Assembly (NCBI GenBank): GCA_031423795.1
Contig: JANPGH010000001.1
Span: 1,656 to 65,655 of the forward strand
From: Elusimicrobiota bacterium
GTDB lineage: Bacteria; Elusimicrobiota; Elusimicrobia; UBA1565; UBA9628
Direction: 5' to 3'
Length of the DNA: 64,000 nt
Part shown: piece after piece, positions 8,521-60,268 of the stretch
Layout of the letters: every line of letters starts with the position of its first letter
Position numbering within the stretch: position 1 is the first letter of the stretch
Translations under genes and position numbers: made by a program
Notes under the pieces: model-generated
What the model saw: the letters and a program-made list of their open reading frames with translations, nothing else
Databases searched by the model: none
What the model was told of the DNA's origin: nothing

Positions 8521-8523
8521 GGG

Positions 8524-45317: not shown

Positions 45318-46676
45318 ATGAGCCTGCGCGCCCTGACGTCCATTCTCGTTCTTGCGGCGACGCCGGCTTGGGCAGTATTCGATGACGCCCCTTTCGGCGC
45401 GCGGGACGCCGCAATGGGGGGAGCGTTCGTAGCTGTTCACGACGACGTGGCCGCGCTCGCTTATAATCCCGCCGCCCTCGGCCATGCTCCCTCAATCGAA
45501 GCGGAAGCTTCCTATTTGCGCGATTTTCACTTTCCCGCCGGCAGTCTCGACCGTGACATCACTCGCGGCGCGGTCGCCATTCCGGTGCGCCAAGAGATTT
45601 TTAACGGCGCGTTCGGTTTCGACGTACGCTATGACCGCCGCTCGCAAATCGCCAAGGACCGCCAAATCGGTGTCTTTTACGGAACCCGGGGACTGCTTGA
45701 AACTGAGGGTGGAGGCCTCGATTTCGGCGGCGGGCTCAAGTGCCTGCAAAGCCGAATAGAATCTGGCGGGAGTACGAAGACGAAGCCCGCGTTGGACTTG
45801 GGAACTTTGTGGCGCGTTGGAGACAAAAGGTCGCTGGGCGCCTCATTGCTTAACTTTGGCGGTGCGAAATTTAGCGGGCCGGGATATTCCGACCGAGCTC
45901 CGCTGATCCTGAAAATTGGCGCGGCTGAATCGGTGCACGGCTCGCTTCTGGCCGTCGATGCCTCGATGCGCGAGGGTTCCTCGGGACTGAGCCGTTCGGT
46001 GACACTGGCCGCCGGCTTCGAGCGTTGGTGGTCGACCGCCCGCAATGGCTCCTACGCGATTCGCAGCGGCCTGTCGCTTGGCGATTTGTCGCGTACCTGG
46101 CATTGGGGATTAGGCTGGAAGCTGGGCGGCGGCCGCGCGGACTATGCGATGACCGTCCCGCTGTCTGGCAACAAGCAGTTCGGCCACGCGCTGACGATTT
46201 CGATTCGGTTCGGTCGGTCGGATCCGGAAGCGGAATATGAGCGGCTACTCGAAGGCGAGATGAACGATCGTCACCGACTGGGAGAATCCCTGGCGGCGAG
46301 CGCCTTGCGCCAGCAGGAACTATCCGAAGAAATCGGGCGTTTGCGCGATGAGATCGCCAAATTGCACCACGCTCTCTCCGAGAAGCGCGCGTCGGCAGAC
46401 GAGGCGCGGCGCAAAATATCGGAACTTGAAGCGCGCCATAAAAAAGCCGTCGCGTCTTTCGACAAGCTGCAGGCGGAGCACGCGCGCAACGCGGCGAAAA
46501 CAAAGTCGGAGTTATTCCATGAAGAATGGGCCGCCTATCAACGCGCCAAGCTCGACGGCGCGCCCGACGCCGCCCTTCTCCAGCGCCTTCAGCGCCTGAT
46601 GACCGAGTACATGGACGCCGGCGTCGACTTGGGCGACGCCAACCAGGAATTGCGCCGTCTCCAGCAAGAGCACTGA
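45318..46676 (+). CDS. PorV-like outer-membrane barrel fused to a C-terminal coiled-coil extension
   Basis: 452 aa with a signal peptide. The N-terminal motif GARDAAMGGAFVAVHDDVAALAYNPAAL parallels the PorV-like gene at 52917. The last ~150 aa are heptad-like and Glu/Arg/Leu-rich. TATAAT lies at 45303-45308. Confidence 0.55.
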   Translation: MSLRALTSILVLAATPAWAVFDDAPFGARDAAMGGAFVAVHDDVAALAYNPAALGHAPSIEAEASYLRDFHFPAGSLDRDITRGAVAIPVRQEIFNGAFGFDVRYDRRSQIAKDRQIGVFYGTRGLLETEGGGLDFGGGLKCLQSRIESGGSTKTKPALDLGTLWRVGDKRSLGASLLNFGGAKFSGPGYSDRAPLILKIGAAESVHGSLLAVDASMREGSSGLSRSVTLAAGFERWWSTARNGSYAIRSGLSLGDLSRTWHWGLGWKLGGGRADYAMTVPLSGNKQFGHALTISIRFGRSDPEAEYERLLEGEMNDRHRLGESLAASALRQQELSEEIGRLRDEIAKLHHALSEKRASADEARRKISELEARHKKAVASFDKLQAEHARNAAKTKSELFHEEWAAYQRAKLDGAPDAALLQRLQRLMTEYMDAGVDLGDANQELRRLQQEH

Positions 46677-47550: not shown

Positions 47551-49395
47551 GTGTCGGATCACTCCCCCGAGGACTTAAGCCGCGAGATCGACCGCCTGTG
47601 GGCGCGGGTTGGTTCCGCGATGCCCGAGGCGACAAGCGTCGCGGCGATCTCGGCGACCACGGCGACGAGCAGCGTCGTCGGTGCTGAGGTCGCGTGGGAG
47701 ACCGTGGGACTGCTCAAGCGTCAGATGCGCCAAAGCGAAAGCTCTTGGCGCCAAACCATGGACGCTCGCGACGAGGCGATGCGCGTGTTGCGCGCGCGGC
47801 TAGAATCCGCCGAGAACGAATTGTCCGGGCTTCGCGCCCACGCCGACAACGAGGACCAGCGTATTTTGGTCGACACACTCGATGCTCGCGAAAAAGTCGA
47901 AACCGCGCAGAAAGCCCTGAATTTGGCTCAGGCGCGGTATAACGATGAGCGCCGGATTCTCGAGGAGGCTATGCAAAGCCTCAGGGAGCGCCTGGCCGCC
48001 GAAAATTCCCGCTCACGCTCGACCGAAGCGCGTTGGCAGAGCCGGGAGCAGCAGTATGTGATCGATCTTCAAGAGCTCCAAAACATTGCCGCGCGGCGCG
48101 AGAAGGAGGCGGCGCAGGCCCAAAGTGCTGCACGCGCGCTGCAAAACAATCTCGCTGAGGCCAAGAATGCGCTCGAGAAGACGCTGGCTGAGCTTTTGCT
48201 TGAGCGCAAGGAACGCGAGCGCGCTCACGGCGAGCGCGAGGCCGCGCAGAAGAACGTCGCTGAGCTGCGCACGCATGTCGACGAACTTTCGAAGATTTGG
48301 GAAGAGGAGCGCGCGCAATGGAAAGAGCTCTGGGACCGTGAGCGCGCGTCCTGGGAGTCGCGGCGCGCGGAACTTGCCAAATGGGAAGAGGATCTGCGTC
48401 GCGAGCGCGAGGCGTGGCACGCGGAGCTTAAAGTCAAAGAAGCCGCGCACCTGGCCATTACCGACGATTTGTCCGGGAAAATCCGCGAGACCGCCCAAAA
48501 CGCTGAGAAAATGACGGAATTGATCGAGACTTTCGATCGCAAAACGACCGATGACACGCACCGCGCCGCCGAAAGTTTGGTCGCGATGGCCGCTAATGAG
48601 CGGTCGCGCCAGCGTAGAGTACGGCGCTGGGCGACCTTCGTTGTGACAGTGGTCATCGCTGGTGCTGCTTTCATACCGGTTCAGCGCGCCGCGCAAACTT
48701 GGCGTTACACCGCTGAGTCCGGCACGCCGGCGCCGGTACCCAATCCGTCGGCAATGGGCTTCGACGGAGATTTGTTATGGATCGCCGATTGGGGCGGCCG
48801 GCTCGTCGGGGTTGATCCGGCCGATCCGCGCCGCGTGCTGCGCCAAGCCAATCCCGCTCCCGCCGGTCCCTACCACCCGACCGCGATCGCTGCCGGCGGT
48901 GGCCTGCTGTGGACATTAGACGCGGCACAGCCCCGCCTGTTGCGTCATTCCGCGGGCAATCCCGAAAAAATATTATCGGTGCGGCCGTCGCCGGGTGCGG
49001 CTCCAACCGCGCTGGCCTATGACGGCGAAACCGTGTGGTCCTATGACGCGGTCGATCATGCGTTGACGCGACATGGCGGCGACGATGCGCCCGCGCAGAA
49101 ATTTGCCTTCCCCGACGACGCCGTCCCCAACGCGATGGCTTGGTCGAGGGGACGCCTGTGGGTCCACGACGCGAAGGGCCACCGAATATTAGTCTATTCA
49201 GTCGACGGCGCTCGCCTGTGCCGCGTCGATATGGCTCCTGCCCCGGAAGCCGGAGCGCTCGGCATGGTCGTCGCCGACGGCGCCTCCGCCCGCGAGCGCC
49301 GCGTGCGTTTCCTGCTCGGTCCGACCGGCGCGCGCCTGGCCGCAGAAGTCGTCCGCTACCGTATTCGCCGCTGGCTACCTTTTGCCCATTATTAA
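47551..49395 (+). CDS. Bitopic protein: N-terminal coiled coil, one TM, C-terminal beta-propeller-like repeats
   Basis: 614 aa with a GTG start 7 nt after TATAAT (47538-47543). TM WATFVVTVVIAGAAFIPV. The C-terminal part has repeated G..LW..D blades. Confidence 0.6.
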   Translation: MSDHSPEDLSREIDRLWARVGSAMPEATSVAAISATTATSSVVGAEVAWETVGLLKRQMRQSESSWRQTMDARDEAMRVLRARLESAENELSGLRAHADNEDQRILVDTLDAREKVETAQKALNLAQARYNDERRILEEAMQSLRERLAAENSRSRSTEARWQSREQQYVIDLQELQNIAARREKEAAQAQSAARALQNNLAEAKNALEKTLAELLLERKERERAHGEREAAQKNVAELRTHVDELSKIWEEERAQWKELWDRERASWESRRAELAKWEEDLRREREAWHAELKVKEAAHLAITDDLSGKIRETAQNAEKMTELIETFDRKTTDDTHRAAESLVAMAANERSRQRRVRRWATFVVTVVIAGAAFIPVQRAAQTWRYTAESGTPAPVPNPSAMGFDGDLLWIADWGGRLVGVDPADPRRVLRQANPAPAGPYHPTAIAAGGGLLWTLDAAQPRLLRHSAGNPEKILSVRPSPGAAPTALAYDGETVWSYDAVDHALTRHGGDDAPAQKFAFPDDAVPNAMAWSRGRLWVHDAKGHRILVYSVDGARLCRVDMAPAPEAGALGMVVADGASARERRVRFLLGPTGARLAAEVVRYRIRRWLPFAHY

Positions 49396-49461: not shown

Positions 49462-52400
49462 ATGTTTCGCCACCACCGCAGTCTGAAGTCCGCCTTCGTC
49501 CTCGTCGCTCTCGCGATGATTTCCTCCGTTTTTGCCACCGCAGGATCCGTACAAGTGGCGGTCAATACGGCTTTCATCGTCGATAGCAGCGGACTCGGGG
49601 CGACCTGCGCCGTTACTGCGGGTAGCGGTGGAACGGCCTATTATGATTGCTTGGCTCCCGACGTCGGCGCCAATGTCCCGACGCCGCAAAATCATTTCAT
49701 CGCCAACGATCCAGAAATTCAATTTGCTGATAATGGCCTCAGTCGCTGCAACCTCGCTGGGGCAGCAGCTAATCCAAATATCCCAGGCACAATCGGCCGC
49801 AATGTCTGCAACTCACAGCTTCTTCTCTGCGCGCAGGTCAGCGTCAACCAGGATGCTGCCCCAGCGTCTTTGGCGTTGGATAAAGTCTCTTTTGAAGTTT
49901 TTCGCTACATCGATGGGTCAAATCCCCTGGATCCTGCTTCCACCCCACCCTTGCGCACCATGTTTATCGATTCCGCCGGATCCGTGTCCGGCCCCGGTTT
50001 TCTTCCTTCCTCGGGGCACGCTTATTGCGTGATGTGGGATGGATCCCAGTCAATCCAGGGTTCGTTAGGAAAAATAAATGGTCAGTACGGCTTTCGCGTG
50101 GCGGTGGAAACCAACCAGCAAGGCGCCAGCGGTCAAATCGTCATTACCGCCGTCAGGGCCTATCCTTCCGGTGGCGTGACATACGACGGTTCGGGCGGCC
50201 CGCCCTACACGGCCGTCGCGCCGAAAGCCATTACGGTCAACGTCAACGACGTTCACGTCGTACGGTCGACCCCCACCATCGTCGGCCAGATCACGGGCGT
50301 TGCGGCGGAGCCCTACAACTTTACTTATCGCCTGTCGAAAGGCGCGACCATGTACCTCAATGTCAGCCAGTCGAATCCACCCTATTCATTGATCCGAACC
50401 GTCGTTCCCGCTCTGCAGAGGACCGGCGAGGGCGACCTCGGAACTCAGAACGCGGTTCCTATCGTCAACGGTGATTCCTGGGACGGTCGCGATTCAAACG
50501 GGAATTTCATGCCCGCTGGCAACTATTTGGCGTCATTCCAGTCTAACTCGATGACGCTGTACTCGAATACTCTTGTACAGGGAGACCTGTCGGCGCCGAC
50601 CACGGTTCAAATCGGCCTTGATCCTCTGCAAATCACCGATATACGAGTCCAACCGCTGCTGGGAGGAGCGACGTCGCTCGCCGTGCTCTCCTATATGTTG
50701 ACCGAGCCGGCGACGGTCTATATAGAAGTATATTCGCCGGGAACGCAGTTCTGCAATGACTCGAACAATATAGCGGCTTTAAACGACCTGCCTACCTCCG
50801 CTATTCCGGGAGTCAATTATTTGAGCGCCAGCTCCGGCGGATGTATTCCGGGCGGAGGAGCTGTGGCACCCGTTCAGCCGTTGCGCTCGATTGTCCAGCA
50901 GCAGACATTCCGCACTCCTATCCTTTCCTATTGGGATGGTCGGGATTCCTCCGGTAATTTGGTCGGTGACGGTGATTATGTGTTCGTGATTTACGCGACA
51001 CTCCCTTCACAGCGGGGAGCCATCTTCGACGGTAACGCCGCAGATCGCAGAATTTGGACCACACAAGGAAAAATAGGGTTTATTTCCGTTTTGCGCGGAC
51101 TTGTGGGGCTGACTCAGGTGACGCCCACGACCACGGTCATCGGTTCCAGTCCGGCAATCTCCGGGCTCAATCCCTTCTCGTTCCGCTATCAACTGTCGCG
51201 CGACGCGACCGTCTCCTTGAAGATTTTCGACGCGACCGGAAGCATTCTGATAAAAACGATCGTGGATCGAGAGACACGCCCCGGTTTCTTCAATAACGTC
51301 GAGCCATGGGTTGATGGAACCGGCAATGACGGCCGCGCTCTCTCCTCGGGCACTTATCTCGTTCAGCTGACTGCCTACGACCCGGCCTTCCCTGCGAGAA
51401 TCTCGACGACTACCGCCCTTTTCCCGATCAACATGTACCGCATCACCGACGTATCGATCGTTCCACTGCTCGCGGGCGCATCAGACCAGGTTGTGCTCAG
51501 CTATCAGCTGTCGCAGCCGATGTTCGTTGCCTGGAACGTGTATCCGCCGGGTTCGATCGTGGTCAACAGCACCGGTGCGTGGCCTCCGTGCGTCGGCCAG
51601 TCCCCGCCCAGTGCCTGCACAAGCGCATCCGTCGTCAATCCAAGCGGGATACCCGTCAGTCCCGTGGTCACCTTCCACGGAATGCGCCCCGGCCGCCTGC
51701 GCATCTCCGAATTCTGGGACGGTCGGGATACAAACGGACTGTTCGTCCCAGACGGAAATTACGTTTTCACCTTGGTCGCGCAGACCACGACGACGCCGCA
51801 GTACTACACGTCCGACCATATTTTTGGAACCATCACCGTCGCGCGTGGCTCAATCATCTTCCTGAACTTCAGCGTGACTCCCGACGTTCCCGTCCTTTTC
51901 AACTCGAGCAACACGATCACGCTGCATCCTTACACGATCAGCTACACGCTTTCGCGCCAATCCTCGGTCACCATTCAAATTTTGAACACGACCCTTCCCG
52001 CGGCCGTCGTGCGCACACTGGTATCGGGCTCGGTGCGCGAGGGATCGATCCTGCAAACCGATATTTGGGATGGCCGCGACGATAGGGGTAATTTCTTGCC
52101 CGCAGGCTTCTACCTGGTGCGGGCGGTGGCCTCCGACGTGGCGTCAGCGCTGACTTCAGGGACGACGGCGCAGGCAGCCATCTCCTACGATCCACTGCGC
52201 ATTTACGATCTTGCGGTGACGCCGATCACCTTTGGAGGTGGTGGCGCGATAATCGCGTATCAAGTCTCCGAGTCGATGAAGGTATCGATCAAAATCTACA
52301 AACCAGGGACCACCTTCGACTCGGCGGGAACGCCATCTCAACCCGACTCCGTATCCTTGGTTCGCCGCATCGTCGGAATTCGGCCGGGCCGCACGCTGAT

Positions 52401-52920
52401 CCAGGACGTATGGGACGGCCGCGACTTCCGAATGGCCCTGGTTCCGGACGGCGTTTATCGCTTCAAGATCGTCGGCTCGACCGATCCGACCGCCATCGAC
52501 AGCATTACCGGCAATATTTTAAATCCGGCGGTGTTGGCCACAGACCGCCCCATCGACGATATCCCCGTCGCAACCGACGGTGCGGCTGGGGATGCCGGCA
52601 CAAATTTTGATCACGATACTTTCGTCTATCCCAATCCAGTCACCGGGAATTCGGCGGTCGTCAAGATTTTCATGCCGTATACCGGCCGAGCGATTTTCAA
52701 TCTTTACACCATCGCCGGACAATTGGTTTACAGCCGAACTATGGAGGGCATGTCCGCCAATCACCTCTGTTCAGGAGACTGCAATTCGTTCACCTGGAAC
52801 AAGGTCAACGCCAGCGGACGCACCCTTGCTCGTGGTTTGTATTACGCCGTCATCCGTGTCGAGGAAACTCAAGGCAGCGGGACCGTTTATCAAACGGTTA
52901 AGAAGGTGTTGATCCCGTGA
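49462..52920 (+). CDS. Large surface protein: about 7 FlgD-Ig-like repeats plus a T9SS type A C-terminal sorting domain
   Basis: About 1152 aa from ATG 49462, with a signal peptide. The recurrent motif is WDGRD..G..(V/M)P.G.Y. The C-terminal VYPNPVTGNSAVVKI...LYTIAGQLV...GLYYAVIRV...KKVLIP fits the Por_Secre_tail pattern. Confidence 0.8.
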   Translation: MFRHHRSLKSAFVLVALAMISSVFATAGSVQVAVNTAFIVDSSGLGATCAVTAGSGGTAYYDCLAPDVGANVPTPQNHFIANDPEIQFADNGLSRCNLAGAAANPNIPGTIGRNVCNSQLLLCAQVSVNQDAAPASLALDKVSFEVFRYIDGSNPLDPASTPPLRTMFIDSAGSVSGPGFLPSSGHAYCVMWDGSQSIQGSLGKINGQYGFRVAVETNQQGASGQIVITAVRAYPSGGVTYDGSGGPPYTAVAPKAITVNVNDVHVVRSTPTIVGQITGVAAEPYNFTYRLSKGATMYLNVSQSNPPYSLIRTVVPALQRTGEGDLGTQNAVPIVNGDSWDGRDSNGNFMPAGNYLASFQSNSMTLYSNTLVQGDLSAPTTVQIGLDPLQITDIRVQPLLGGATSLAVLSYMLTEPATVYIEVYSPGTQFCNDSNNIAALNDLPTSAIPGVNYLSASSGGCIPGGGAVAPVQPLRSIVQQQTFRTPILSYWDGRDSSGNLVGDGDYVFVIYATLPSQRGAIFDGNAADRRIWTTQGKIGFISVLRGLVGLTQVTPTTTVIGSSPAISGLNPFSFRYQLSRDATVSLKIFDATGSILIKTIVDRETRPGFFNNVEPWVDGTGNDGRALSSGTYLVQLTAYDPAFPARISTTTALFPINMYRITDVSIVPLLAGASDQVVLSYQLSQPMFVAWNVYPPGSIVVNSTGAWPPCVGQSPPSACTSASVVNPSGIPVSPVVTFHGMRPGRLRISEFWDGRDTNGLFVPDGNYVFTLVAQTTTTPQYYTSDHIFGTITVARGSIIFLNFSVTPDVPVLFNSSNTITLHPYTISYTLSRQSSVTIQILNTTLPAAVVRTLVSGSVREGSILQTDIWDGRDDRGNFLPAGFYLVRAVASDVASALTSGTTAQAAISYDPLRIYDLAVTPITFGGGGAIIAYQVSESMKVSIKIYKPGTTFDSAGTPSQPDSVSLVRRIVGIRPGRTLIQDVWDGRDFRMALVPDGVYRFKIVGSTDPTAIDSITGNILNPAVLATDRPIDDIPVATDGAAGDAGTNFDHDTFVYPNPVTGNSAVVKIFMPYTGRAIFNLYTIAGQLVYSRTMEGMSANHLCSGDCNSFTWNKVNASGRTLARGLYYAVIRVEETQGSGTVYQTVKKVLIP

Positions 52921-53900
52921 GTAAATTGATCAGATTTTTCTTGGCGATCAACGTCCTCCTAGCGACCACTTCGTCCGCGGCCTGGGCGATTGATTCCGCA
53001 GCGGGCACCAGTGCTGCCCAATTTATGAAGATCGGCCAAGGATCTGCTCGCGCGATGGCTCTGGGAGGAGCTTACGTCGCATTGGCCGAAGGCTCGGACG
53101 CGATGTCCTGGAATCCGGCCGGTCTGGCCGCGACCCAGCAGCGGGAATTCGCCTTCTCATATCTGCGCCATCTTCAAACCCTCGATTCGCCATTATATCT
53201 GGGATACGCGCATCCGATGGGTCGCACGACCTGGGGCGGGAATTTCGGTTACATGTCCGACAGCTTGACGGGCACCGACGTCCGTGACACTTCTGGCTAT
53301 ATCCAGCAGGGTACGAACGTTACTGTTCGTGATTTTTACGGAGCGATCGGCTTGGCGAGGTCGTTCATGTATGAAAAACTCTTTTTGGGCGCGGCGATCC
53401 GGGAAGTTCATGAAGAGATCGCGGGCTCCAAACATGACACGTTTGCGGGGGACTTCGGCGTCATTTTCAAACCGACGAACATACTATCCCTGGGTTTCGC
53501 CCTCCAGAATTTCGGCGCCAGCGATGCCAATATCGCGCGAGTCCTGCGCGGCGGGGCGGCGCTGCGGCTCAACGATTTCGTGACATTCTCCGGTGAATTG
53601 AATAAAGCGACCGATGACGGCACGCACATCGCGCTCGGCGGCGAATTCCAGTTGCCGGAAGAATATCTAGACGTGGGACAAATCACCATGCGCATCGGAT
53701 ATAAGAGCGGCCAAGGCTACGGCCAGAGCTTTTCTGGCGTGCTTAAATCTCTGAAGTTGGACCAGAGCAGCGGATTGTCTTTTGGACTAGGCGTGTACAC
53801 GTCGCAGGCGTTCGGTTACGGAGTCGCGATCGATTACGCGTTCGTGCCATACGGGGCGCTGGGGACGGTCGACCAGATTTCATTCAAGTTGAAATTTTAA
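52917..53900 (+). CDS. PorV/PorQ-family outer-membrane beta-barrel
   Basis: 327 aa with a signal peptide. Motif GSARAMALGGAYVALAEGSDAMSWNPAGLA. GTGA overlap with the upstream cargo gene. Confidence 0.7.
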   Translation: MSKLIRFFLAINVLLATTSSAAWAIDSAAGTSAAQFMKIGQGSARAMALGGAYVALAEGSDAMSWNPAGLAATQQREFAFSYLRHLQTLDSPLYLGYAHPMGRTTWGGNFGYMSDSLTGTDVRDTSGYIQQGTNVTVRDFYGAIGLARSFMYEKLFLGAAIREVHEEIAGSKHDTFAGDFGVIFKPTNILSLGFALQNFGASDANIARVLRGGAALRLNDFVTFSGELNKATDDGTHIALGGEFQLPEEYLDVGQITMRIGYKSGQGYGQSFSGVLKSLKLDQSSGLSFGLGVYTSQAFGYGVAIDYAFVPYGALGTVDQISFKLKF

Positions 53901-53921: not shown

Positions 53922-53950
53922 TTGACACTGATATGGACGGCTGTTAAACT
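53922..53950 (+). promoter_or_regulatory. Promoter TTGACA-N17-TAAACT, 7 nt before the first pilin ATG (leaderless)
   Basis: TTGACA at 53922-53927, TAAACT at 53945-53950 and ATG at 53958. Confidence 0.6.
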
Positions 53951-53957
53951 GACGGCG

Positions 53958-54137
53958 ATGCGAAAGCGGTTTATACCTCGGACATTATTAGGGAAGAAGG
54001 GCCAGACGGTCGTGGAGTACCTTTTGACGACGCTGACGCTCGTGACATTGTTCGCGGGGATGTACGGATTCTTGCAGGGGCAGCTTAAGACCTTGTTTCG
54101 CATCGCCGGGATTAAAATTTTGACGCCGTATTACTAA
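53958..54137 (+). CDS. flp: Flp-type pilin 1
   Basis: 59 aa. The class III signal is KKG/QTVVEYLL, matching G/xxxxEY, and a hydrophobic helix follows. Confidence 0.7.
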   Translation: MRKRFIPRTLLGKKGQTVVEYLLTTLTLVTLFAGMYGFLQGQLKTLFRIAGIKILTPYY

Positions 54138-54168
54138 CGTGAAATCGCAAGAAGGAGAGAGCGCGACC

Positions 54169-54381
54169 ATGAAATTGACTGAGTTCGGAGCGGTAATTCG
54201 ACGCCGGCTTACCAGCCGGCGTGGGCAGAACACCGTCGAATACTTGCTGATGTTGACTGTCGTCGTCGGTGTCGTTCTGGTGGCAGGAGTGGCGTTGAAG
54301 AAATTCATGCCGACTCTGTTTAACCAGATCCAGCAAATGATCTCGGGAGCCGCTGGACAGATGGGCTCGGGCGGCGGCTGA
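54169..54381 (+). CDS. flp: Flp-type pilin 2 (Gly-rich C-terminus)
   Basis: 70 aa. SD AAGGAGAG lies about 9 nt upstream. The signal is RRG/QNTVEYLLML. Confidence 0.75.
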   Translation: MKLTEFGAVIRRRLTSRRGQNTVEYLLMLTVVVGVVLVAGVALKKFMPTLFNQIQQMISGAAGQMGSGGG

Positions 54382-54390
54382 TCCGTCTTC

Positions 54391-54426
54391 CGCTCCGGTC
54401 CGCATGGACCGGGGCGGAGGCGGTTT
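54391..54426 (+). terminator. Hairpin (11 bp, GCAU loop) with a weak U-tract after the pilin genes; possible attenuator
   Basis: CGCUCCGGUCC-GCAU-GGACCGGGGCG at 54391-54416, followed by GAGGCGGUUUAA. Confidence 0.4.
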
Positions 54427-54444
54427 AAGCGTCACAAATGATTC

Positions 54445-54882
54445 GTGAGGAGTCGAATAAAATGTCGGTCTGGTCAAGTGGTCGTCGAAATGTTGCTGAT
54501 CCTTCCCGTATTCCTGGGAATGATCTTCATGATCATGGAAATCGGCTACGTGTCGTTTCGTTTGATCGTTCTCAACCATGCGACGTACGAAGTGGCGCGC
54601 GTTGGCGGGATGACGTGGTTTTCGCCAGTCGGAGGGCCGAGCAAGGTCGCAGGCGTAATGCAGAGGATTCTGCCCGAGGCAGTAGTGCAATGCCTTCCGG
54701 ACAAGACCATGCGCGATCCGCAGGCGGACCAGGACAATTTCGATTTGGTGTGTACGGGAACGGAAGACGTGGCGTTGATTTTTCCCATCAGCAGCGTCGT
54801 CCTCGCCAAACCGGCGCGCAGCGGCAAGCGCCGGCTGGTGGCGGTCGTAAGAATGCCGATTGAGCAGCCATTGAGGAAGTAA
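54445..54882 (+). CDS. TadE-like pseudopilin
   Basis: 145 aa with a GTG start. The signal is RSG/QVVVEMLLILPVFL, and HATYEVARVG is present. Confidence 0.65.
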   Translation: MRSRIKCRSGQVVVEMLLILPVFLGMIFMIMEIGYVSFRLIVLNHATYEVARVGGMTWFSPVGGPSKVAGVMQRILPEAVVQCLPDKTMRDPQADQDNFDLVCTGTEDVALIFPISSVVLAKPARSGKRRLVAVVRMPIEQPLRK

Positions 54883-54904
54883 ATAGCGGACCAGGACACA
54901 AACC

Positions 54905-55660
54905 ATGGAAAAGAAAGGCGTGCTGATTCCGACGGTGTTGGCGATAGTTGCGGCGGTGTTCTACATGATCGTGCTGATGAGCAAGGAGAAATCCCTCACC
55001 GCCGACTATGAGAAGACGACCGTGCTTATCGCCCGCGCCGATATCCCGGAGCGCACCGTGCTGCGCGAAGACATGGTCGACAAGCTGGAAATCCCGCGCA
55101 AGTTCATGCAACAGGACGATTTCGAGGTTAAGACCCAGTCCGACATGAAGCTGATCGTTAATTTGGTGACGCGCACCCGCATCCCTAAGGGCAATCAGGT
55201 CACGATGTCGTCCTTGGTGTCGATGTCGCCGGAGTCCGGCCTCAGCGTGAAGATCCCTCCCGGATACCGCGGCGCGATGCTACCAATCGAGCCAGAAATG
55301 AAAATCCTGGTTAAGCCGGGCGATCGCGTCGACGTGCTGGTGACTTTCGAGGCGATGATGAACGACGGCCGCAAGGAAAAAGTCACCGCGACGATCCTGC
55401 AGAACGTGCTGGTGATCGCGGTGGGCACCAATCTCGGCCAGGGCATGAACGCCAAGCAGTTTAAGAACGCCCAAGCCACCGAGGAGAAAACGGCGGCCTT
55501 CGCGGAGAAGGCGACCGTCAGCCTGGCCTTAAATCCGACCGAGGCGCAGTATCTGGCGCTCGCTCTCAAGCAGGGCGATCCGACCGTGATCATGCGCGGC
55601 CTCGGCGACATCGAGATGCATCCGCTCGAGATGGCCAGCTTCCGCAAGCTTTTCCGATGA
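54905..55660 (+). CDS. cpaB: Flp pilus assembly protein CpaB/RcpC (SAF domain)
   Basis: 251 aa. An N-terminal TM is followed by VLIARADIPERTVLREDMV. Confidence 0.8.
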   Translation: MEKKGVLIPTVLAIVAAVFYMIVLMSKEKSLTADYEKTTVLIARADIPERTVLREDMVDKLEIPRKFMQQDDFEVKTQSDMKLIVNLVTRTRIPKGNQVTMSSLVSMSPESGLSVKIPPGYRGAMLPIEPEMKILVKPGDRVDVLVTFEAMMNDGRKEKVTATILQNVLVIAVGTNLGQGMNAKQFKNAQATEEKTAAFAEKATVSLALNPTEAQYLALALKQGDPTVIMRGLGDIEMHPLEMASFRKLFR

Positions 55661-56406
55661 AGAAGACTTTTTGGACGGCGATGGCTCTTCTCGCGCTGAC
55701 CGCGCCACGGGCCTCCGCGCAGCCGGAGGACTCTTTAATCGCGATCTCAGCCGACATCGTCGAGATCTCGGGATCTTACGAGAGGGACCTCGGATTTGCG
55801 TGGACTCCGTTTCAAGCGGGGGTCAATTTCGCCGAAAAGGCCATCCCCGTGGGGAGCATCATCAGGATCGGGGACTTCGCCCGACAAACCCAACTGCAAA
55901 GCTCGCTGAAGTTGCTGGAGACGGAGGGCAAAGCGCAGTTGCTGTCCAATCCGAAGGTCATTGTGCAGGCGCAGTCTCAGGCTAACTTTGTGGTCGGAGG
56001 CGAACAGCCTTATCCGACCGCTAACGGCAACGGAACCGTGACGACCGATTTCAAGAAGTTCGGCGTGATCATGAATATCGTGCCGGTGATCAACCCCAAT
56101 AAGAAGGACACGATTCGCGCGGAATTACAGCTCGAGGTTTCCAACGTTGATTTTTCCAAGACGGTCCAAGTCGGCAACACGGCGGTGCCCTCAATCGTTA
56201 CGCGCCAGCTGCAGACCGCCGTGGAAGTCAAAAGCGGCGAGACGCTGGTGATCGGGGGACTTAAGTCCAGCACCAAGAACTCGTCGAAGACGAAAGTTCC
56301 CTTTATCGGCAGCATCCCGATCATTGGCCTGCTGTTTACCCAGACGCAGGTCACCGAAACCCAGGTCTCTTTGTTTCTGTTCATCACGATGGAAATCGTG
56401 AAGTAA
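55657..56406 (+). CDS. Minimal secretin (secretin core only, 249 aa)
   Basis: It has a signal peptide. Motifs are LLSNPKVIVQAQSQANFVVGGE, FGVIMNIVP and VPFIGSIPIIGLLF. ATGA overlap with cpaB. Confidence 0.8.
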   Translation: MKKTFWTAMALLALTAPRASAQPEDSLIAISADIVEISGSYERDLGFAWTPFQAGVNFAEKAIPVGSIIRIGDFARQTQLQSSLKLLETEGKAQLLSNPKVIVQAQSQANFVVGGEQPYPTANGNGTVTTDFKKFGVIMNIVPVINPNKKDTIRAELQLEVSNVDFSKTVQVGNTAVPSIVTRQLQTAVEVKSGETLVIGGLKSSTKNSSKTKVPFIGSIPIIGLLFTQTQVTETQVSLFLFITMEIVK

Positions 56407-56419
56407 GAGTCACCCAACC

Positions 56420-58747
56420 ATGGCCGATACGCAGGCGAGCTCCGAGGCGTTCGTCCAGACCTCCGTCAAGGAGCCTGGGCGAGTCGTCGTATTTACCGGC
56501 CCGAAAGAAGGCGTCGGTAAAAGCACGACATGCCTGAATCTTGCGCTCGCGTGGGCCGGCAGCCAAAACCGCAAAGTCGTGATCGTGCACATGGACCCAC
56601 TGTGCCGCAACGACATTAGTTTCGTGCTCGGGGGGAGCTCTCCGTCGCTAGCGAGCATGGCCAATTTGGTGGGGGAAAGCCCAACTGGAGGACTCGGCCG
56701 CTTGCTGAAAGGGCGCATTCCGATCTCGCAGTGGGGAGTGGGACTTCTGCCGCTGGCGGCGTCGCGCGCGGAATTTTCAAAACTCACGCCGAATTTGGTC
56801 GCGAAGATCCTGGGGTCCTTGGCCGAGAGTTACGACCTCTTCATCGACGTGGATCCCTATTTCCCGCTGCAGATTTTCTCGTTCGATCTGGCTGATCTCA
56901 TTTTTTGGGTGTGTCTGCCCCAGCGGGCCCATTTTGAGGCCACGTACTCTCTGTTTAACGATATCAAAGCCCTCCATTTCCCGCTCGAAAAATTTGAGAT
57001 CGTCATCAACCAGGCGAACCTCCCGGGCGCGTTGGCCCCGAAAGAGGTCGGTCGATTTTTCCACGCGATGCAGAAAACCGTGCTGGCCTACATGCCCTGG
57101 GACGACTACATTCCGGAGTATTGGAACACCCAGCGCATTCTCGTCGTCGAGCAGCTCCAAAGCGAGTGGGTGAAATCCCTGCGCACCTTGCTCGGCCGGG
57201 TCATGGAGATGAAACCTTCGGTCAAGCAGTGGGAAAGCAGCATGGGCGCCGACGAGTTCGTTTCCTCATCGGAGCTATTATGGAGGCCCACCGCGGCGGT
57301 GGCGGCCGCCAATGCAGCAGAGGCAACTAAGGCAATCAAGCCGACCGCAGTCGGGCCGGTACCCGATTTCTGGGATGAGTTGAAGGGCAAAATGCACAAA
57401 TTCGTCGTCTCGGCGATGGAGACCGAGCGCATCCGAATTTCTGAGGACCCGAAGCAAAACGAAGACAATCGGTCGAAGGTCAGCCAGATCATCGATAATC
57501 TCCTGCAGCGAGAGGAAAATCTGGCGCTTTCTCGTGCGCAACGCCAGCAGTTCGTCGTTGAATTGGTTGACGAGATTCTGGGTTTCGGGCCGCTTCAACA
57601 GTTGCTGCGCGACCCCACGATCAACGAAATCATGGTCAACGGCTACGATCGAATTTACATCGAGCAGAAAGGCCAACTGATTCTTCTTCCGACCCGCTTT
57701 CGCAACGATGAGCAAGTCGTGCAGGTCATCAAGCGCATCGTCGCCCCGGTGGGACGGCGCATCGACGAGTCGGTGCCGCTGGTCGACGCGCGGCTCAAAG
57801 ACGGGTCGCGCGTGAACGCGATCATTGCACCCCTAGCGATTTCGGGGCCCACGCTGACGATTCGTCGTTTCTCAGCCAAGCCGTTCACACACAAGCAGCT
57901 GGTTGCCTTCGGCTCCTGCACGCAAGGATTCATCGACTTCCTTAGCGCGACGGTGATCATCAAGAAGAATATTTTGATCTCCGGCGGCACTGGCACTGGT
58001 AAGACGACATTTTTAAATATGCTTTCGAATTTCATTCCCGAGGGCGAGCGCATCGTAACCGTGGAAGATACGGCCGAATTGCGGCTGCTCGCCGATCATT
58101 GGATTCGCCTGGAATCTCGCCCTCCGAATATCGAGGGCAAGGGGGAGATCACGATTCGCGACCTGATCAAGAACTGCTTGCGCATGCGCCCGGACCGGAT
58201 CATCGTCGGCGAGTGTCGCGGCGGCGAGGCGTTGGACATGCTTCAGGCGATGAACACGGGGCACGAAGGCTCGCTGGCGACCCTGCACGCAAATACTCCG
58301 TCGGACGCCATTTCTCGCTTGTCGGCGATGTGTTTGATGGGCGGTACCGATCTTCCGATGAGCGTTCTAGTCGACATGATCTCGAGCGCGGTCAACGTGT
58401 TCATCCAAATAACCCGCTTCCCGGACGGCAAGCGCCGCGTGACTTACATCACTGAGTGCGTGGGACGCGACGGCGCGAAAATCCTGACCCGCGATATTTT
58501 TCGCTTCATTCAGACGTGGATGGACGAAAAGGGAACGACTTACGGTTATTTCACCGCGTGCGACTATATCCCCAAGTTCATGGAGGAGATAAAGCTCAAG
58601 GGCATCACCATCCCAAAAGAGGCCTTCATCAGCGAGCGCACCAAGAAAAAGAATGGGCTTGCGAATGCGATCGACGACATGTTGAGGGCTGGTCTGCCGG
58701 TTCCCGACGACGCCGAGGCAGTTGCGTCGTCGAAAGGAGTGTTCTGA
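56420..58747 (+). CDS. Fusion of a TadZ/CpaE-like ParA/MinD ATPase and a TadA/CpaF secretion ATPase
   Basis: 775 aa. The N-terminal part has [16 protein letters not shown]. An Ala-rich linker follows. The C-terminal part has [24 protein letters not shown] and [13 protein letters not shown]. Confidence 0.85.
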
Positions 58748-60267
58748 TGCGCGCTCTGGCGCTTCTTGCCGTCTTGACTCTCGCCGCCGGGGCTCCCGTT
58801 TGCGCGCAGCAAGTCTTCACACGCGAACAAGGCCAGGCCCTATTCGACAAGAAGGACGGCGCTGAATTCAAGGTCCAGGTTTTCTACCACTACTTTAAGC
58901 GCGACCGCGATCCCAGCGTGCCAGCGCCGAAATGGGTCGCAGCGACGCTTGACGCGATGCTCAAGCGCGCCGTCTGGCAGGACCCCGATGAGGGTGTGCT
59001 CAACGAGGCCCAACTATGGCAGGCGCCGGTGTCCGTCCTATACGAGTTCTTCGAATTGGTACGCAAAAGCCTGCCGCCCGATCCATACGGGGGGCAACTA
59101 ATACCGCCGGGCAACCTCGTACGCGATTACGAGGACAACCGCGTACGTTTCCAGATGTCGCTCGATCGACTCGTCCGGTCGCGGTTGGGAAGTTCTCTTG
59201 GCGGACGCGGGCGCGCGGTGATTGCGCACTTCGACTTGATCAACAAGCAGCTCGACTCCGTAATGGACGGCCTAATCAACGGGGATACGCAGCGCTACAA
59301 GGACGGGGTCATCGCCATCGGAGCGTTGAGCAATGGGGCGTTCGACGTCCTGCAGGCAGCGCCCCGCGGCTACAATGACCCGTCGATAACAACCGACAAG
59401 AGCGCCAAGGACATAGCACTCTTCTTCCTTTGCTTTGGCATCATCGCGATGGCCATCGCGGGCTTTATGCTGGGGACGTTGAATGAGGAAAAAATCAGCA
59501 TTGGCATTGCCCGCTACCGCACGAAGGCCACGGAATGGGCGCACGAATATGAGCGCCAATTCATTGCGATCAAAATCCATTATTTGGTCGGCGTGCCAAT
59601 CGTCCTGGGAGCCTTGGCGGGCCTGCTGTCCTTTGACATTTTCGGCTTCCTGATTTTCACCGGTTTCGGTGTGTATGCGGGGCTGACTATTCCGGGCTGG
59701 CTTTTGCGCAACATCCGTTTCCGTCGCGGGCAGAAAGTCGAGGCCCAGCTCATGGACGCGATGATCTTGATGTCAAACGGGCTCAAATCGGGCATCGACT
59801 TGATTGGTTGCATTGAGATGGTGACCAAGGACTGCGCGCCGCCGATTTCAGAAGAGTTCGGTTTGTGCCTCAAGAATTACCATTTGGGCACGCCGCTTGA
59901 GCGCGCGCTTGAGGGCGTTGAGGAGCGTGTGCAGAGCCGGCTCTTGTCGTACATGATCAAGGCCGTCAATATCCAGCGCTCGGTCGGCGGCAACCTAACC
60001 AAGATCTTTGACCGCATCGTCGAAAACATCCGCGAGGAATCGAAGCTGACGGAGAAAACGGCGGCGATGACCGCCCAGCAGCGCATCCAGGCCATCGTCG
60101 TCGGAGTGATGCCGTGGATCATGCTGATCATCATGTTCGTCTTTCAACCGCAAACGATGCGCGATTTCTATTTCTCGCCCATCGGTTTTTTCACGCTCCT
60201 GTTCTGCACCGTTTGGATCTCAATTGGCATGAAAATCGTCAATAAGCTCGGGGATATTAGCGTCTGA
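58747..60267 (+). CDS. tadB: TadB-like platform protein with an N-terminal ~200-aa secreted domain
   Basis: 506 aa from ATG 58747 (TGATG overlap). The order is a signal peptide, a soluble domain, TMs, and then a GspF/T2SSF-like region (LMSNGLKSGIDL...LERALEG). Confidence 0.7.
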   Translation: MRALALLAVLTLAAGAPVCAQQVFTREQGQALFDKKDGAEFKVQVFYHYFKRDRDPSVPAPKWVAATLDAMLKRAVWQDPDEGVLNEAQLWQAPVSVLYEFFELVRKSLPPDPYGGQLIPPGNLVRDYEDNRVRFQMSLDRLVRSRLGSSLGGRGRAVIAHFDLINKQLDSVMDGLINGDTQRYKDGVIAIGALSNGAFDVLQAAPRGYNDPSITTDKSAKDIALFFLCFGIIAMAIAGFMLGTLNEEKISIGIARYRTKATEWAHEYERQFIAIKIHYLVGVPIVLGALAGLLSFDIFGFLIFTGFGVYAGLTIPGWLLRNIRFRRGQKVEAQLMDAMILMSNGLKSGIDLIGCIEMVTKDCAPPISEEFGLCLKNYHLGTPLERALEGVEERVQSRLLSYMIKAVNIQRSVGGNLTKIFDRIVENIREESKLTEKTAAMTAQQRIQAIVVGVMPWIMLIIMFVFQPQTMRDFYFSPIGFFTLLFCTVWISIGMKIVNKLGDISV

Positions 60268-60268
60268 T

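What the first reader, a model, noticed from the sequence alone, without database searches (positions are those of the whole stretch)
49462..53900. T9SS-type cargo with FlgD-Ig repeats, translationally coupled to a private PorV-like barrel
The ~1150-aa secreted protein carries about 7 copies of a module ending in WDGRD..G..VP.G.Y (nt about 50040-52600). It also has a C-terminal domain matching the T9SS type A sorting pattern (VYPNP...GLYYAVIRV...KKVLIP). Its stop overlaps the GTG of a PorV/PorQ-like barrel gene (GTGA at 52917-52920). PorV is the outer-membrane shuttle for CTD cargo in Bacteroidota. No other T9SS core gene (PorK/L/M/N, SprA/Sov, PorU) occurs in the 64 kb. A one-cargo/one-shuttle cassette may therefore be an autonomous two-partner-like export or anchoring module.
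Basis: partly seen in the sequence, partly recalled or inferred. Interest (0 to 1): 0.7.

Follow-up and report, generated by a model that had tools for sequence, protein, structure and literature searches.

The report
Surface protein, private barrel, pilus operon
An Elusimicrobiota bacterium makes a long surface protein with a type-IX-style C-terminal tag together with its own PorV/PorQ-like outer-membrane barrel. The pair always sits at the head of a Tad-type pilus operon, which suggests tag-plus-barrel anchoring works in a phylum where type IX secretion has not been described.

Summary
The gene at 49462-52920 encodes a 1152-aa all-beta protein with a signal peptide, seven FlgD-Ig-type modules and a T9SS-like C-terminal domain (CTD). 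Its stop overlaps (GTGA) the start of a 327-aa PorV/PorQ-family barrel gene (52917-53900), modelled as a 14-stranded FadL-type barrel.

- The pair is not free-standing. In every related locus with enough sequence (about 54 Elusimicrobiota genomes and 35 metagenome contigs, barrel identity down to 34%) it lies directly upstream of the same Tad/Flp pilus genes. The RTGA overlap is kept in 49 of 51 orthologous loci.
- "CTD protein followed by PorV-like barrel" recurs as a cassette at ten other paralogous loci in barrel-centred samples. In an unbiased CTD sample, 3 of 5 were paired.

By HMM score the CTDs resemble the C-terminus of PorZ and the barrels resemble PorQ. The closest known cases are therefore non-covalent CTD-to-barrel anchors (PorZ-PorQ, PorU-PorV, SprB-SprF).

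My best reading is a surface fibril docked on a dedicated barrel as an accessory of the Tad-like machine. "Autonomous export" is untested, because I could not scan these genomes for SprA, PorK/L/M/N or PorU. I rate it a new variant of a known kind, of moderate to high interest.

The parts
49462..52920 (+). Cargo gene. It encodes a 1152-aa secreted all-beta protein: signal peptide, variable N-terminal domain, seven FlgD-Ig-type modules, linker and T9SS-like CTD.
   Evidence: ORF. Pfam FlgD_ig E = 9.3e-31. AF2 gives an all-beta model with mean pLDDT 78.9. Orthologues in Elusimicrobiota are 50-71% identical.
49462..49542 (+). Sec-type signal peptide of the cargo (aa 1-27).
   Evidence: Sequence MFRHHRSLKSAFVLVALAMISSVFA. 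pLDDT is below 50 for residues 1-27. Reading it as a signal peptide is my inference from its composition.
49828..52503 (+). Seven tandem FlgD-Ig-type modules (aa 123-1014), each ending in WDGRD..G..VP.G.Y.
   Evidence: Motif positions and module HMM hits. Modules 4-7 are the most conserved part of the protein.
52618..52917 (+). C-terminal domain (aa 1053-1152), T9SS type-A-like and most similar to the PorZ and PorU C-termini.
   Evidence: TIGR04183 28.6 bits against a cut-off of 23. PorZ and PorU C-terminal matches and Pfam CHU_C 30.1 against 27. Seven predicted beta-strands.
52917..52920 (+). GTGA: the barrel start codon overlaps the cargo stop codon (translational coupling).
   Evidence: Sequence. 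RTGA is conserved in 49 of 51 orthologous loci.
52917..53900 (+). PorV/PorQ-family outer-membrane barrel, 327 aa, with a signal peptide ending in AWA and a C-terminal KLKF.
   Evidence: NF033709 87 bits, aligned full length. Profile hit to PorV 6H3I_F at E = 1.6e-6. 14-strand AF2 model. Foldseek hits to FadL and PorV.
53922..53950 (+). Promoter-like site (TTGACA-17-TAAACT with a TG) between the barrel stop and the first pilin gene.
   Evidence: Consensus scan only. This is not evidence of function.
53958..54137 (+). Flp-type pilin 1 (MRKRFIPRTLLGKKG/QTVVEYLL...).
   Evidence: ORF and sequence motif. A small gene is called at the same position in related loci.
54139..54381 (+). Flp-type pilin 2 (...RRG/QNTVEYLL...).
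   Evidence: Pfam Class_IIIsignal and Flp1_like, both weak.
54445..54882 (+). TadE-like pseudopilin.
   Evidence: Pfam TadE E = 2e-9.
54905..55660 (+). CpaB/RcpC.
   Evidence: Pfam RcpC. TIGR03177 101.8 bits against a cut-off of 71.
55657..56406 (+). Unusually short secretin (249 aa): a secretin domain with almost no N-domains.
   Evidence: Pfam Secretin E = 4e-40 at aa 86-249. Matches only the C-terminal parts of PilQ and GspD.
56420..58747 (+). TadZ-like ParA/MinD domain fused to a CpaF/TadA ATPase.
   Evidence: Pfam CbiA plus T2SSE.
58750..61177 (+). TadB and TadC platform proteins. TadB starts at about 58750 and ends at 60267; TadC runs 60269-61177.
   Evidence: Pfam T2SSF in both. The TadB start is approximate and inferred from orthologue length.
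61177..63656 (+). TPR protein (61177-62538) and a conserved 373-aa protein of unknown function (62535-63656). These are the constant 3' end of the cluster.
   Evidence: Pfam TPR. Synteny in all loci.
45318..46676 (+). Second, divergent PorV-family barrel with a C-terminal coiled coil. It is often but not always present upstream.
   Evidence: NF033709 44 bits at aa 26-298. Synteny.
47551..49395 (+). 614-aa protein with an N-terminal coiled coil, one hydrophobic segment and a C-terminal beta-propeller-like region. It is usually present just upstream of the cargo gene.
   Evidence: Sequence. Weak sub-threshold PQQ_2 and NHL hints. Synteny.

Best explanation
The two genes encode a 1:1 pair.
- **Cargo.** A Sec-exported rod-like protein about 1150 aa long. 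It has a variable N-terminal tip, seven FlgD-Ig-type beta-sandwich modules and a T9SS-type C-terminal domain.
- **Barrel.** A dedicated 14-stranded PorV/PorQ-family (FadL-superfamily) outer-membrane barrel.

The RTGA stop/start overlap couples their translation, so they are made together. I infer that the CTD docks non-covalently on or in the barrel. In Bacteroidota, the CTDs of PorZ and PorU dock on PorQ and PorV in this way, and type-B CTD proteins dock on PorP/SprF barrels. Docking would leave the Ig-module rod anchored by its C-terminus on the cell surface.

The pair is not an independent island. It is the constant first part of an Elusimicrobiota-specific Tad/Flp pilus gene cluster: two Flp pilins, TadE, CpaB, a minimal secretin, TadZ-CpaF, TadB, TadC, a TPR protein and a 373-aa protein. 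It most likely serves as an outer-membrane or surface accessory of that machine, either as an adhesin or as a surface scaffold working with the pilus.

**Shown:** domain identities, the barrel fold, conserved coupling, conserved synteny and the recurrence of the cassette.

**Inferred:** CTD-barrel binding, surface location and functional cooperation with the pilus.

**Unknown:** the route across the outer membrane.
For: **Domain and family calls**
- FlgD_ig E = 9.3e-31; TIGR04183 28.6 bits against 23; CHU_C 30.1 against 27.
- PorV_fam 87 bits over the full length. Profile hit to PorV 6H3I_F at E = 1.6e-6.
- 14-strand AF2 model with FadL and PorV as structural neighbours.

**Coupling.** RTGA overlap in 49 of 51 orthologous loci.

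**Synteny.** The order cargo, barrel, flp, tadE, cpaB, secretin, cpaF, tadB, tadC, TPR, 373-aa protein is found wherever the contig reaches. This covers about 54 species-level Elusimicrobiota genomes and 35 metagenome loci found through the secretin. It holds down to barrel identity 34-43% and cargo identity 30-42%. It also holds where the upstream genes differ (L051-L054 and L058).

**Conservation.** In L004, TsaD is 62% identical, the barrel 64% and the cargo 52%. That is comparable to a housekeeping gene.

**Cassette recurrence**
- Nine paralogous barrels in L060-L068, plus one in L033, each follow a protein with a CTD-type C-terminus.
- Three of five unbiased CTD hits do the same.
- The paralogous CTDs score best against the PorZ C-terminus (39-57 bits). 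The paralogous barrels pass PorV_fam (128-178 bits) and score best against PorQ.

**Polarity of conservation.** The N-terminal domain averages 38% identity, modules 4-7 average 65-71% and the CTD 48%. This fits a rod anchored at its C-terminus with an exposed, variable tip.

**Co-variation.** After controlling for CpaF and TadC distances, barrel distances co-vary with the cargo passenger (partial r 0.57) and the CTD (0.41). Both exceed the CTD's co-variation with CpaB (0.21) or the secretin (-0.07). This is weak evidence.

**Precedent.** Cognate, gene-adjacent FadL-family barrels anchor CTD proteins in Bacteroidota (Gorasia et al. 2022, PMC9143113).
Against: - No physical evidence of binding exists.
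- The main barrel falls 3 bits short of the curated PorV_fam cut-off.
- The CTD passes TIGR04183 only in the context of the full protein (28.6 bits). Alone it scores 21.8 bits, and it fails Pfam Por_Secre_tail.
- A promoter-like site separates the barrel gene from the pilin genes. Co-transcription with the Tad genes is therefore not established, and adjacency alone does not prove a shared function.
- Paralogous cassettes lie away from Tad genes.
- Two of five sampled CTD proteins lack an adjacent barrel.
- One barrel (L069) follows a glycosidase-like ORF without a recognisable CTD.
- The mirror-tree signal could simply reflect the shared faster evolution of surface-exposed proteins.
Confidence: 0.55

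Rival explanations
1. This is ordinary T9SS cargo plus a PorV/PorQ component. These Elusimicrobiota would encode a complete type IX system (SprA/Sov translocon, PorK/L/M/N motor and ring, PorU sortase) elsewhere in the genome. The pair here would be one substrate with its collecting or anchoring barrel, as SprB-SprF is in Flavobacterium.
For: - The CTD and barrel belong to T9SS-associated families.
- NCBI names related proteins "T9SS type A sorting domain-containing protein" and "PorV/PorQ family protein" in Elusimicrobiota MAGs.
- T9SS genes are scattered in Bacteroidota, so their absence from 64 kb is uninformative.
- CTD proteins without an adjacent barrel exist, and those would need a general pathway.
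- In Bacteroidota, cognate barrels still depend on SprA (PMC9143113).
Against: - The one systematic survey I could read found T9SS in no clade other than Bacteroidetes (Abby et al. 2016, PMC4793230).
- No paper in the library links T9SS or PorV with Elusimicrobia.
- No T9SS core family was hit in the window.
- Many private barrels per genome, each translationally coupled to its own cargo, is not how type-A cargo is organised in Bacteroidota.
Confidence: 0.22
2. This is an autonomous two-partner-like module. The PorV-family barrel, with BAM, would itself carry its cognate CTD protein across the outer membrane and then hold it there. No SprA-type translocon would be needed. This would be analogous to Slam/T11SS or type V systems, and the adjacency to Tad genes would be only regulatory or historical.
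For: - One barrel per cargo is seen at many unrelated loci, with conserved translational coupling.
- CTD-only mini-proteins of 95-129 aa sit in front of barrels.
- Some barrels are fused to TPR or OmpA-like periplasmic domains.
- T9SS is not reported outside Bacteroidetes.
- From my own knowledge: Slam barrels are 14-stranded, carry a TPR domain, lie next to their cargo genes and recognise a C-terminal beta domain.
Against: - No FadL, PorV or PorP-type barrel is known to translocate a folded or 1150-aa protein.
- In Bacteroidota the homologous barrels collect cargo from SprA rather than translocate it.
- Whether the T9SS core is absent from these genomes was not tested.
- The strict linkage of this pair to a secretin-containing machine argues against full autonomy for this particular pair.
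Confidence: 0.13
3. The Tad-like machine is really a type-II-like secretion system. The cargo would be pushed out through the minimal secretin and then captured at the surface by the barrel through its CTD.
For: - The cargo-barrel pair is invariably linked to the secretin, ATPase and pseudopilin genes over deep divergence.
- The secretin is unusual, with only 249 aa.
- From my own knowledge and Denise et al. 2019 (PMC6668835): Tad, T2SS and T4P are homologous, and function has shifted repeatedly within this superfamily.
Against: - There is no direct evidence.
- The Flp-type pilins with the G/xxxxEY motif are typical of adhesive Tad pili.
- Other CTD-barrel cassettes are not next to Tad genes.
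- The CTD residual distances do not co-vary with those of the secretin (partial r -0.07).
Confidence: 0.07
4. The adjacency has no functional meaning. The barrel would be a FadL-type transporter of hydrophobic substrates and the upstream gene an unrelated adhesin, or a FlgD hook-cap protein as JGI annotates it.
For: - FadL, TbuX and TodX are the top Foldseek hits by E-value.
- JGI names the cargo "flagellar hook assembly protein FlgD".
Against: - The 4-nt overlap is conserved in 49 of 51 loci.
- Pairing recurs at ten paralogous loci.
- The best family-specific HMMs are PorV_fam and PorQ, and the best TM-score and identity are to PorV.
- Only the Ig-like domain of FlgD is present, in seven copies, and the FlgD equivalog models are far below their cut-offs (75 against 230 bits).
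- The window contains no flagellar genes.
Confidence: 0.03

Closest known systems
PorZ-PorQ and PorU-PorV pairs of the Porphyromonas gingivalis T9SS attachment complex
   Same: A protein with a retained type-A-like CTD is held on the cell surface by a 14-stranded FadL-family barrel. Here the CTDs score best against the PorZ C-terminus and the barrels best against PorQ. The barrel profile hits PorV 6H3I_F.
   Different: From my own knowledge, porQ and porZ are not adjacent or translationally coupled in P. gingivalis, and they are single-copy parts of a roughly 20-protein system with the SprA/Sov translocon. Here the genes are fused into a cassette that is multiplied across the genome, occurs in Elusimicrobiota and in one case is embedded in a Tad pilus operon. 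The cargo is a seven-module Ig rod rather than the beta-propeller protein PorZ.
Type-B CTD cargo with cognate PorP/SprF-like barrels (SprB-SprF, PG1035-PorP) in Bacteroidota
   Same: The logic is one cargo and one barrel, with adjacent genes. The barrel is a 14-stranded FadL-family protein that anchors its own CTD protein. Some barrels are linked to TPR/propeller/OmpA proteins (PorE) (PMC9143113). Here some paralogous barrels are fused to TPR or OmpA-like domains. Pfam CHU_C, the type-B CTD model, is weakly hit (30.1 against 27).
   Different: The barrel matched PorV/PorQ-family models, and no PorP/SprF model appeared among its NCBIfam hits at E up to 1. The CTD likewise hits the type-A model TIGR04183, and no type-B CTD model appeared. 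In Bacteroidota these pairs still need SprA, and whether that is so here is unknown.
Tad/Flp (type IVc) pilus systems (Aggregatibacter tad, Caulobacter cpa)
   Same: Flp pilins with the G/xxxxEY motif, TadE, CpaB/RcpC, secretin, TadZ, CpaF/TadA, TadB, TadC and a TPR protein are all present and in the usual order. Tad systems in Elusimicrobia were noted by Denise et al. 2019.
   Different: As far as I know, no described Tad locus includes a CTD protein plus a PorV-family barrel. The secretin is minimal at 249 aa. TadZ is fused to CpaF. No prepilin peptidase was recognised in the cluster.
Slam/T11SS and two-partner secretion (T5bSS)
   Same: Cargo and a dedicated outer-membrane barrel are encoded side by side. 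For Slam, the barrel is 14-stranded and there is a C-terminal beta-domain signal (my own knowledge).
   Different: There is no sequence relationship. No Omp85/POTRA, TPS or DUF560 model hit either protein. The analogy is only functional.

Membership tests
T9SS type A C-terminal sorting domain (TIGR04183 / PF18962) | HMM score above the curated cut-off | tested here: inconclusive
   TIGR04183 scores 28.6 bits against a cut-off of 23 on the full protein, but 21.8 bits on the isolated CTD. It covers only model positions 1-37 of 72. Pfam PF18962 scores 17.5 against 27. Paralogous CTDs pass at 23.5-32.4 bits over the full model length.
T9SS type A C-terminal sorting domain (TIGR04183 / PF18962) | Located at the extreme C-terminus of a protein with a Sec signal peptide | tested here: met
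   The domain covers the last 100 aa, and the N-terminal signal-peptide-like sequence is present.
T9SS type A C-terminal sorting domain (TIGR04183 / PF18962) | About 7-stranded beta-sandwich fold | tested here: met
   The AF2 model has seven strands between aa 1054 and 1151, with block pLDDT 63-90. This is a prediction only. The expected fold is from my own knowledge.
T9SS type A C-terminal sorting domain (TIGR04183 / PF18962) | Secretion depends on the SprA/Sov translocon, and the CTD is removed by PorU | not testable with these tools
   This needs whole-genome scans and experiments. No T9SS core gene is present in the window.
PorV/PorQ family (NF033709) | HMM score above the curated cut-off | tested here: inconclusive
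   87.0 bits against a cut-off of 90, aligned 1-326 of 326. Paralogues in related genomes score 128-178 bits. The equivalog models for PorQ (44 against 220) and PorV (24.5 against 250) are not met, so this is not an orthologue of either.
PorV/PorQ family (NF033709) | 14-stranded FadL-type outer-membrane barrel with an N-terminal plug-like segment | tested here: met
   The AF2 model has 14 strands, mean pLDDT 74.7 and short helices at aa 33-72. Foldseek gives FadL at 7.7e-8 and PorV 6h3i_F at TM 0.59 and 18% identity. The profile hits PorV at E = 1.6e-6.
PorV/PorQ family (NF033709) | Binds the CTD of a T9SS substrate or component | not testable with these tools
   This is inferred only from conserved gene pairing and coupling.
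Complete type IX secretion system | SprA/Sov, PorK/L/M/N, PorT, PorU and PorW present in the genome | not testable with these tools
   None is in the 64-kb window. The genome could not be scanned. The literature survey found T9SS only in Bacteroidetes.
Type B CTD / PorP-SprF cassette | Type-B CTD model and PorP/SprF-family barrel | tested here: not met
   Only Pfam CHU_C is weakly hit (30.1 against 27). No NCBIfam type-B CTD or PorP-family model appears at E up to 0.1 (whole cargo and barrel) or E up to 1 (isolated CTD). The barrel is PorV/PorQ-like.
Tad/Flp pilus system (the flanking cluster) | Flp pilin with G/xxxxEY, TadE, CpaB, secretin, TadZ, CpaF, TadB and TadC in one locus | tested here: met
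   with the pilin motifs read from the sequence. No prepilin peptidase (TadV) was found in the cluster.
FlgD flagellar hook cap | FlgD equivalog score, N-terminal FlgD domain and flagellar gene context | tested here: not met
   The best FlgD equivalog scores 75 bits against a cut-off of 230 and matches only the Ig-like domain. Pfam lists only FlgD_ig. The window contains no flagellar genes.
Two-partner secretion (T5bSS) | Omp85/POTRA transporter and a TPS domain in the cargo | tested here: not met
   No such Pfam or NCBIfam hits in either protein.

The most novel reading that the evidence does not exclude
CTD-plus-PorV/PorQ-barrel cassettes in Elusimicrobiota (and WOR-3) work without any SprA/PorKLMN machinery. 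On this reading a FadL-type barrel and its cognate CTD protein form a self-contained surface-display or export unit, perhaps fed in this locus by the minimal Tad secretin. That would be an ancestral or stripped-down relative of type IX secretion and, in effect, a new outer-membrane protein-display pathway.
Probability: 0.2. Interest if true: 0.85.

Novelty: new variant of a known kind. Interest (0 to 1): 0.6.

Why it matters
CTD-to-barrel anchoring is known only as part of the Bacteroidota type IX secretion system. Here the same two parts appear as translationally coupled gene cassettes in a phylum where T9SS has not been reported. One of these cassettes is locked into a Tad pilus operon across deep divergence.

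If the T9SS core is truly absent, this would show that the CTD/FadL-barrel pair is an independent, portable module. That would bear directly on how T9SS originated. It would also give a small, testable system of two genes for studying how CTDs are recognised.

Even if a T9SS is present, the finding adds an unrecognised outer-membrane accessory pair to Tad pili. It also corrects the database labels "FlgD" and "hypothetical protein" for a large, conserved family of Elusimicrobiota surface proteins.

Tried and rejected
- **Direct sequence search of the PDB.** Searching with the barrel and with the cargo found nothing useful. Only the orthologue profile reached PorV.
- **Foldseek on the whole cargo model.** It returned only generic multi-Ig or macroglobulin-type proteins at TM 0.1-0.18, which says nothing beyond "tandem beta-sandwiches".
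- **Literature.** Searches for T9SS or PorV in Elusimicrobia, or outside Bacteroidetes, found nothing relevant.
- **T9SS core sequences.** I could not obtain any to search with, and I could not scan a complete Elusimicrobiota genome. The key question of autonomy therefore stays open.
- **Rfam and tRNA scans of the window.** Both were empty.
- **Rejected readings.**
  - FlgD hook cap.
  - Type-B CTD/PorP cassette.
  - Two-partner secretion.
  - "Unrelated FadL transporter", given the conserved coupling.
- **Weak leads.** Sub-threshold hints of a beta-propeller in the 614-aa upstream protein and of a HAMP-like segment in the 373-aa downstream protein were not pursued.

Full report
**1. What is in the sequence**

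The region holds two + strand genes, 49462-52920 and 52917-53900. The longest ORF for the first gene starts at GTG 49426. ATG 49462 gives a classical signal peptide (MFRHHRSLKSAFVLVALAMISSVFA) and agrees with the N-termini of the orthologues.

The stop of the first gene and the GTG start of the second overlap as GTGA at 52917-52920. The window has about 59% G+C, and no tRNA or Rfam family was found in it.

Every close homologue of both proteins that carries an organism name comes from an Elusimicrobiota (Elusimicrobia) metagenome-assembled genome. The window is therefore from that phylum, not from Bacteroidota.

**2. The cargo**

Pfam finds FlgD_ig at E = 9.3e-31 in five significant stretches. 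Six WDG[RS][DQ] motifs and one degenerate copy lie between nt 50035 and 52411. A module HMM delimits seven modules between aa 123 and 1014.

AlphaFold2, run with 38 orthologues, gives an all-beta chain of sandwich domains with mean pLDDT 78.9. A Foldseek search with the whole model returns only generic multi-Ig or macroglobulin-like proteins at TM below 0.2 and adds nothing.

The last 100 aa score as follows:

| Model | Score | Cut-off |
|---|---|---|
| TIGR04183 (T9SS type A sorting domain), whole protein | 28.6 bits | 23 |
| TIGR04183, isolated CTD | 21.8 bits | 23 |
| Pfam Por_Secre_tail | 17.5 bits | 27 |
| Pfam CHU_C | 30.1 bits | 27 |

This region also aligns locally to the C-terminal domains of PorZ and PorU. 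Seven strands are predicted there with good confidence.

The FlgD label that JGI gives this family is wrong. Only the Ig-like domain matches, and the FlgD equivalog models are far below their cut-offs.

Conservation along the protein is polar. Mean identity to the window protein is 38% for the N-terminal domain, 65-71% for modules 4-7 and 48% for the CTD. This is what I would expect for a rod held at its C-terminus with a free, exposed tip.

**3. The barrel**

- NCBIfam PorV_fam scores 87.0 bits, 3 bits below its cut-off of 90, with an end-to-end alignment. PorQ (44 bits) and PorV (24.5 bits) are the next families.
- A profile of 33 orthologues finds Flavobacterium johnsoniae PorV (6H3I chain F) at E = 1.6e-6.
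- The AF2 model (pLDDT 74.7) has 14 strands preceded by a short helical, plug-like segment.
- Foldseek finds FadL, TbuX, TodX and PorV. PorV gives the highest TM-score (0.59) and identity (18%).

PorV, PorQ and PorP are themselves FadL-family barrels (PMC9143113).

**4. Surroundings, which change the picture**

Immediately downstream lies a complete Tad/Flp-type pilus cluster:
- two Flp pilins with the G/QxxVEY motif;
- TadE;
- CpaB (TIGR03177 101.8 bits against a cut-off of 71);
- a minimal 249-aa secretin;
- a TadZ-CpaF fusion;
- TadB and TadC;
- a TPR protein;
- a conserved 373-aa protein.

Upstream are a second, divergent PorV-family barrel with a coiled-coil tail (45318-46676; 44 bits) and a 614-aa coiled-coil and propeller-like protein.

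The order cargo, barrel, pilins, tadE, cpaB, secretin, cpaF, tadB, tadC, TPR, 373-aa protein is found in every locus that reaches far enough. This was checked in three sets:
- three contexts retrieved by exact protein identity, including a complete 3.8-Mb chromosome;
- about 54 species-representative Elusimicrobiota genomes;
- 35 metagenome loci retrieved through the secretin rather than the barrel, down to barrel identity 34-43% and cargo identity 30-42%.

The order persists where the genes upstream of the cargo differ (L051-L054 and L058).

The pair is about as conserved as a housekeeping gene. In L004, TsaD is 62% identical, the barrel 64%, the cargo 52%, CpaB 72% and the secretin 75%.

The stop/start overlap is RTGA in 49 of 51 orthologous loci. 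The other two have spacers of 1-2 nt.

**5. The cassette recurs**

The same genome scan also returned barrels only 23-30% identical to this one, in Elusimicrobiota and in one WOR-3 genome. Each of these nine (L060-L068) lies directly after a gene whose product ends in a CTD-like sequence (...ASGVYL...KKL.I.R). Several have the same 4-nt overlap. A tenth pair lies on the opposite strand of L033.

These paralogous barrels pass PorV_fam clearly (128-178 bits) and resemble PorQ more than PorV. Their CTDs pass TIGR04183 and score best against the PorZ C-terminus at 39-57 bits.

Some barrels carry C-terminal TPR or OmpA-like extensions. This recalls the PorP-PorE link in Bacteroidota.

For a less biased sample I searched with a CTD profile and looked at five hits on long contigs.
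- Three were followed by a PorV/UPF0164-type barrel.
- Two were not.

Pairing is therefore common but not universal. One barrel (L069) follows a glycosidase-like ORF with no recognisable CTD.

**6. Mechanism**

*Shown:*
- a secreted Ig-rod protein with a T9SS-type CTD;
- a PorV/PorQ-family 14-strand barrel;
- conserved translational coupling;
- conserved membership of a Tad-like cluster;
- recurrence of the cassette.

*Inferred:*
- The CTD docks non-covalently on the barrel. PorZ-PorQ, PorU-PorV and SprB-SprF work this way (the last documented in PMC9143113; the first two from my own knowledge).
- The rod is displayed on the surface.
- It works with the pilus, as an adhesin or as a surface scaffold.

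A weak mirror-tree analysis agrees with cargo-barrel co-evolution. After controlling for CpaF and TadC, the partial correlations are barrel-passenger 0.57, barrel-CTD 0.41, CTD-CpaB 0.21 and CTD-secretin -0.07.

*Unknown:* how the cargo crosses the outer membrane. Three routes remain open:
- an undetected T9SS translocon elsewhere in the genome;
- the barrel itself, acting with BAM;
- the Tad secretin.

**7. The "autonomous module" claim**

No T9SS core family is hit by any sizeable ORF I scanned in the window. This says little, because T9SS genes are dispersed.

I could not scan a whole Elusimicrobiota genome, and I had no T9SS core sequences to search with. The only evidence is indirect.
- A systematic survey found T9SS in 60 of 97 Bacteroidetes genomes and in no other clade (Abby et al. 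2016).
- No paper in the library connects T9SS or PorV with Elusimicrobia.

I therefore treat autonomy as an open and attractive possibility, with a probability of about 0.2 when combined with the secretin-route variant. It is not a finding.

**8. Comparison with known systems, and novelty**

- It works like the PorZ-PorQ and SprB-SprF anchor pairs.
- It is not an orthologue of PorV or PorQ, because the equivalog cut-offs are not met.
- It is not a type-B CTD/PorP cassette.
- It is not FlgD.
- It is not two-partner secretion.

What is new:
- the phylum;
- the fusion of a type-A-like CTD gene and a PorQ-like barrel gene into a translationally coupled, multiplied cassette;
- the fixed place of one such cassette at the head of a Tad pilus operon, which to my knowledge has not been described for any Tad system.

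I rate it a new variant of a known kind with interest 0.6. The interest would rise sharply if whole-genome scans show that no SprA or PorKLMN is present.

Noticed in passing
window 53958-63656: A complete Tad/Flp-type pilus cluster lies directly downstream of the finding. Its secretin is unusually small (249 aa, essentially only the secretin domain) and TadZ is fused to CpaF. The TPR protein and the secretin both hit the NCBIfam Amuc_1098 family (a TPR-secretin fusion), as if that protein were split in two here.
   Followed up: partly
window 45318-46676 and 47551-49395: A second, divergent PorV-family barrel with a 150-aa C-terminal coiled coil lies upstream. Next to it is a 614-aa protein with an N-terminal coiled coil, one hydrophobic segment and a propeller-like C-terminus. 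Both usually travel with the cluster but are missing in its most divergent members.
   Followed up: partly
L060-L068, L033:603-3586 (-), L070, L072, L153: "CTD protein followed by PorV/PorQ-like barrel" cassettes occur at many unrelated loci in Elusimicrobiota, WOR-3 and unnamed metagenome bacteria. Some of the CTD proteins are only 95-129 aa long, and at least one (L072) appears to be little more than the CTD domain. Some of the barrels are fused to TPR or OmpA-like domains.
   Followed up: partly
window 7426-10485 (-): Genes for topoisomerase VI subunits A and B, an archaeal/eukaryotic-type enzyme that is uncommon in bacteria. Both have very strong NCBIfam matches (579.7 and 670.6 bits).
   Followed up: no
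window 26676-27836 (-) and 31326-32645 (-): IS110-family and ISNCY-family transposase genes. They flank a stretch whose GC skew is negative, opposite to the flanking regions.
   Followed up: no
window 47014-47487: A nucleotidyltransferase-like ORF (DUF6036 / aminoglycoside adenylyltransferase-like) sits in the spacer between the coiled-coil barrel gene and the 614-aa gene. In the closely related locus L002 that spacer is only about 140 nt, so the ORF looks like an insertion.
   Followed up: no
window 53922-53950: A near-consensus sigma-70-like site (TTGACA, 17 nt, TAAACT, with a TG) lies just after the barrel stop and just before the first pilin gene. It suggests a separate strong pilin promoter inside the cluster.
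   Followed up: no
L069:310-4527: In a low-GC Elusimicrobia MAG, a PorV-like barrel directly follows a 1104-aa glycoside-hydrolase-like ORF that has no recognisable signal peptide or CTD. This is an exception to the cassette rule.
   Followed up: no
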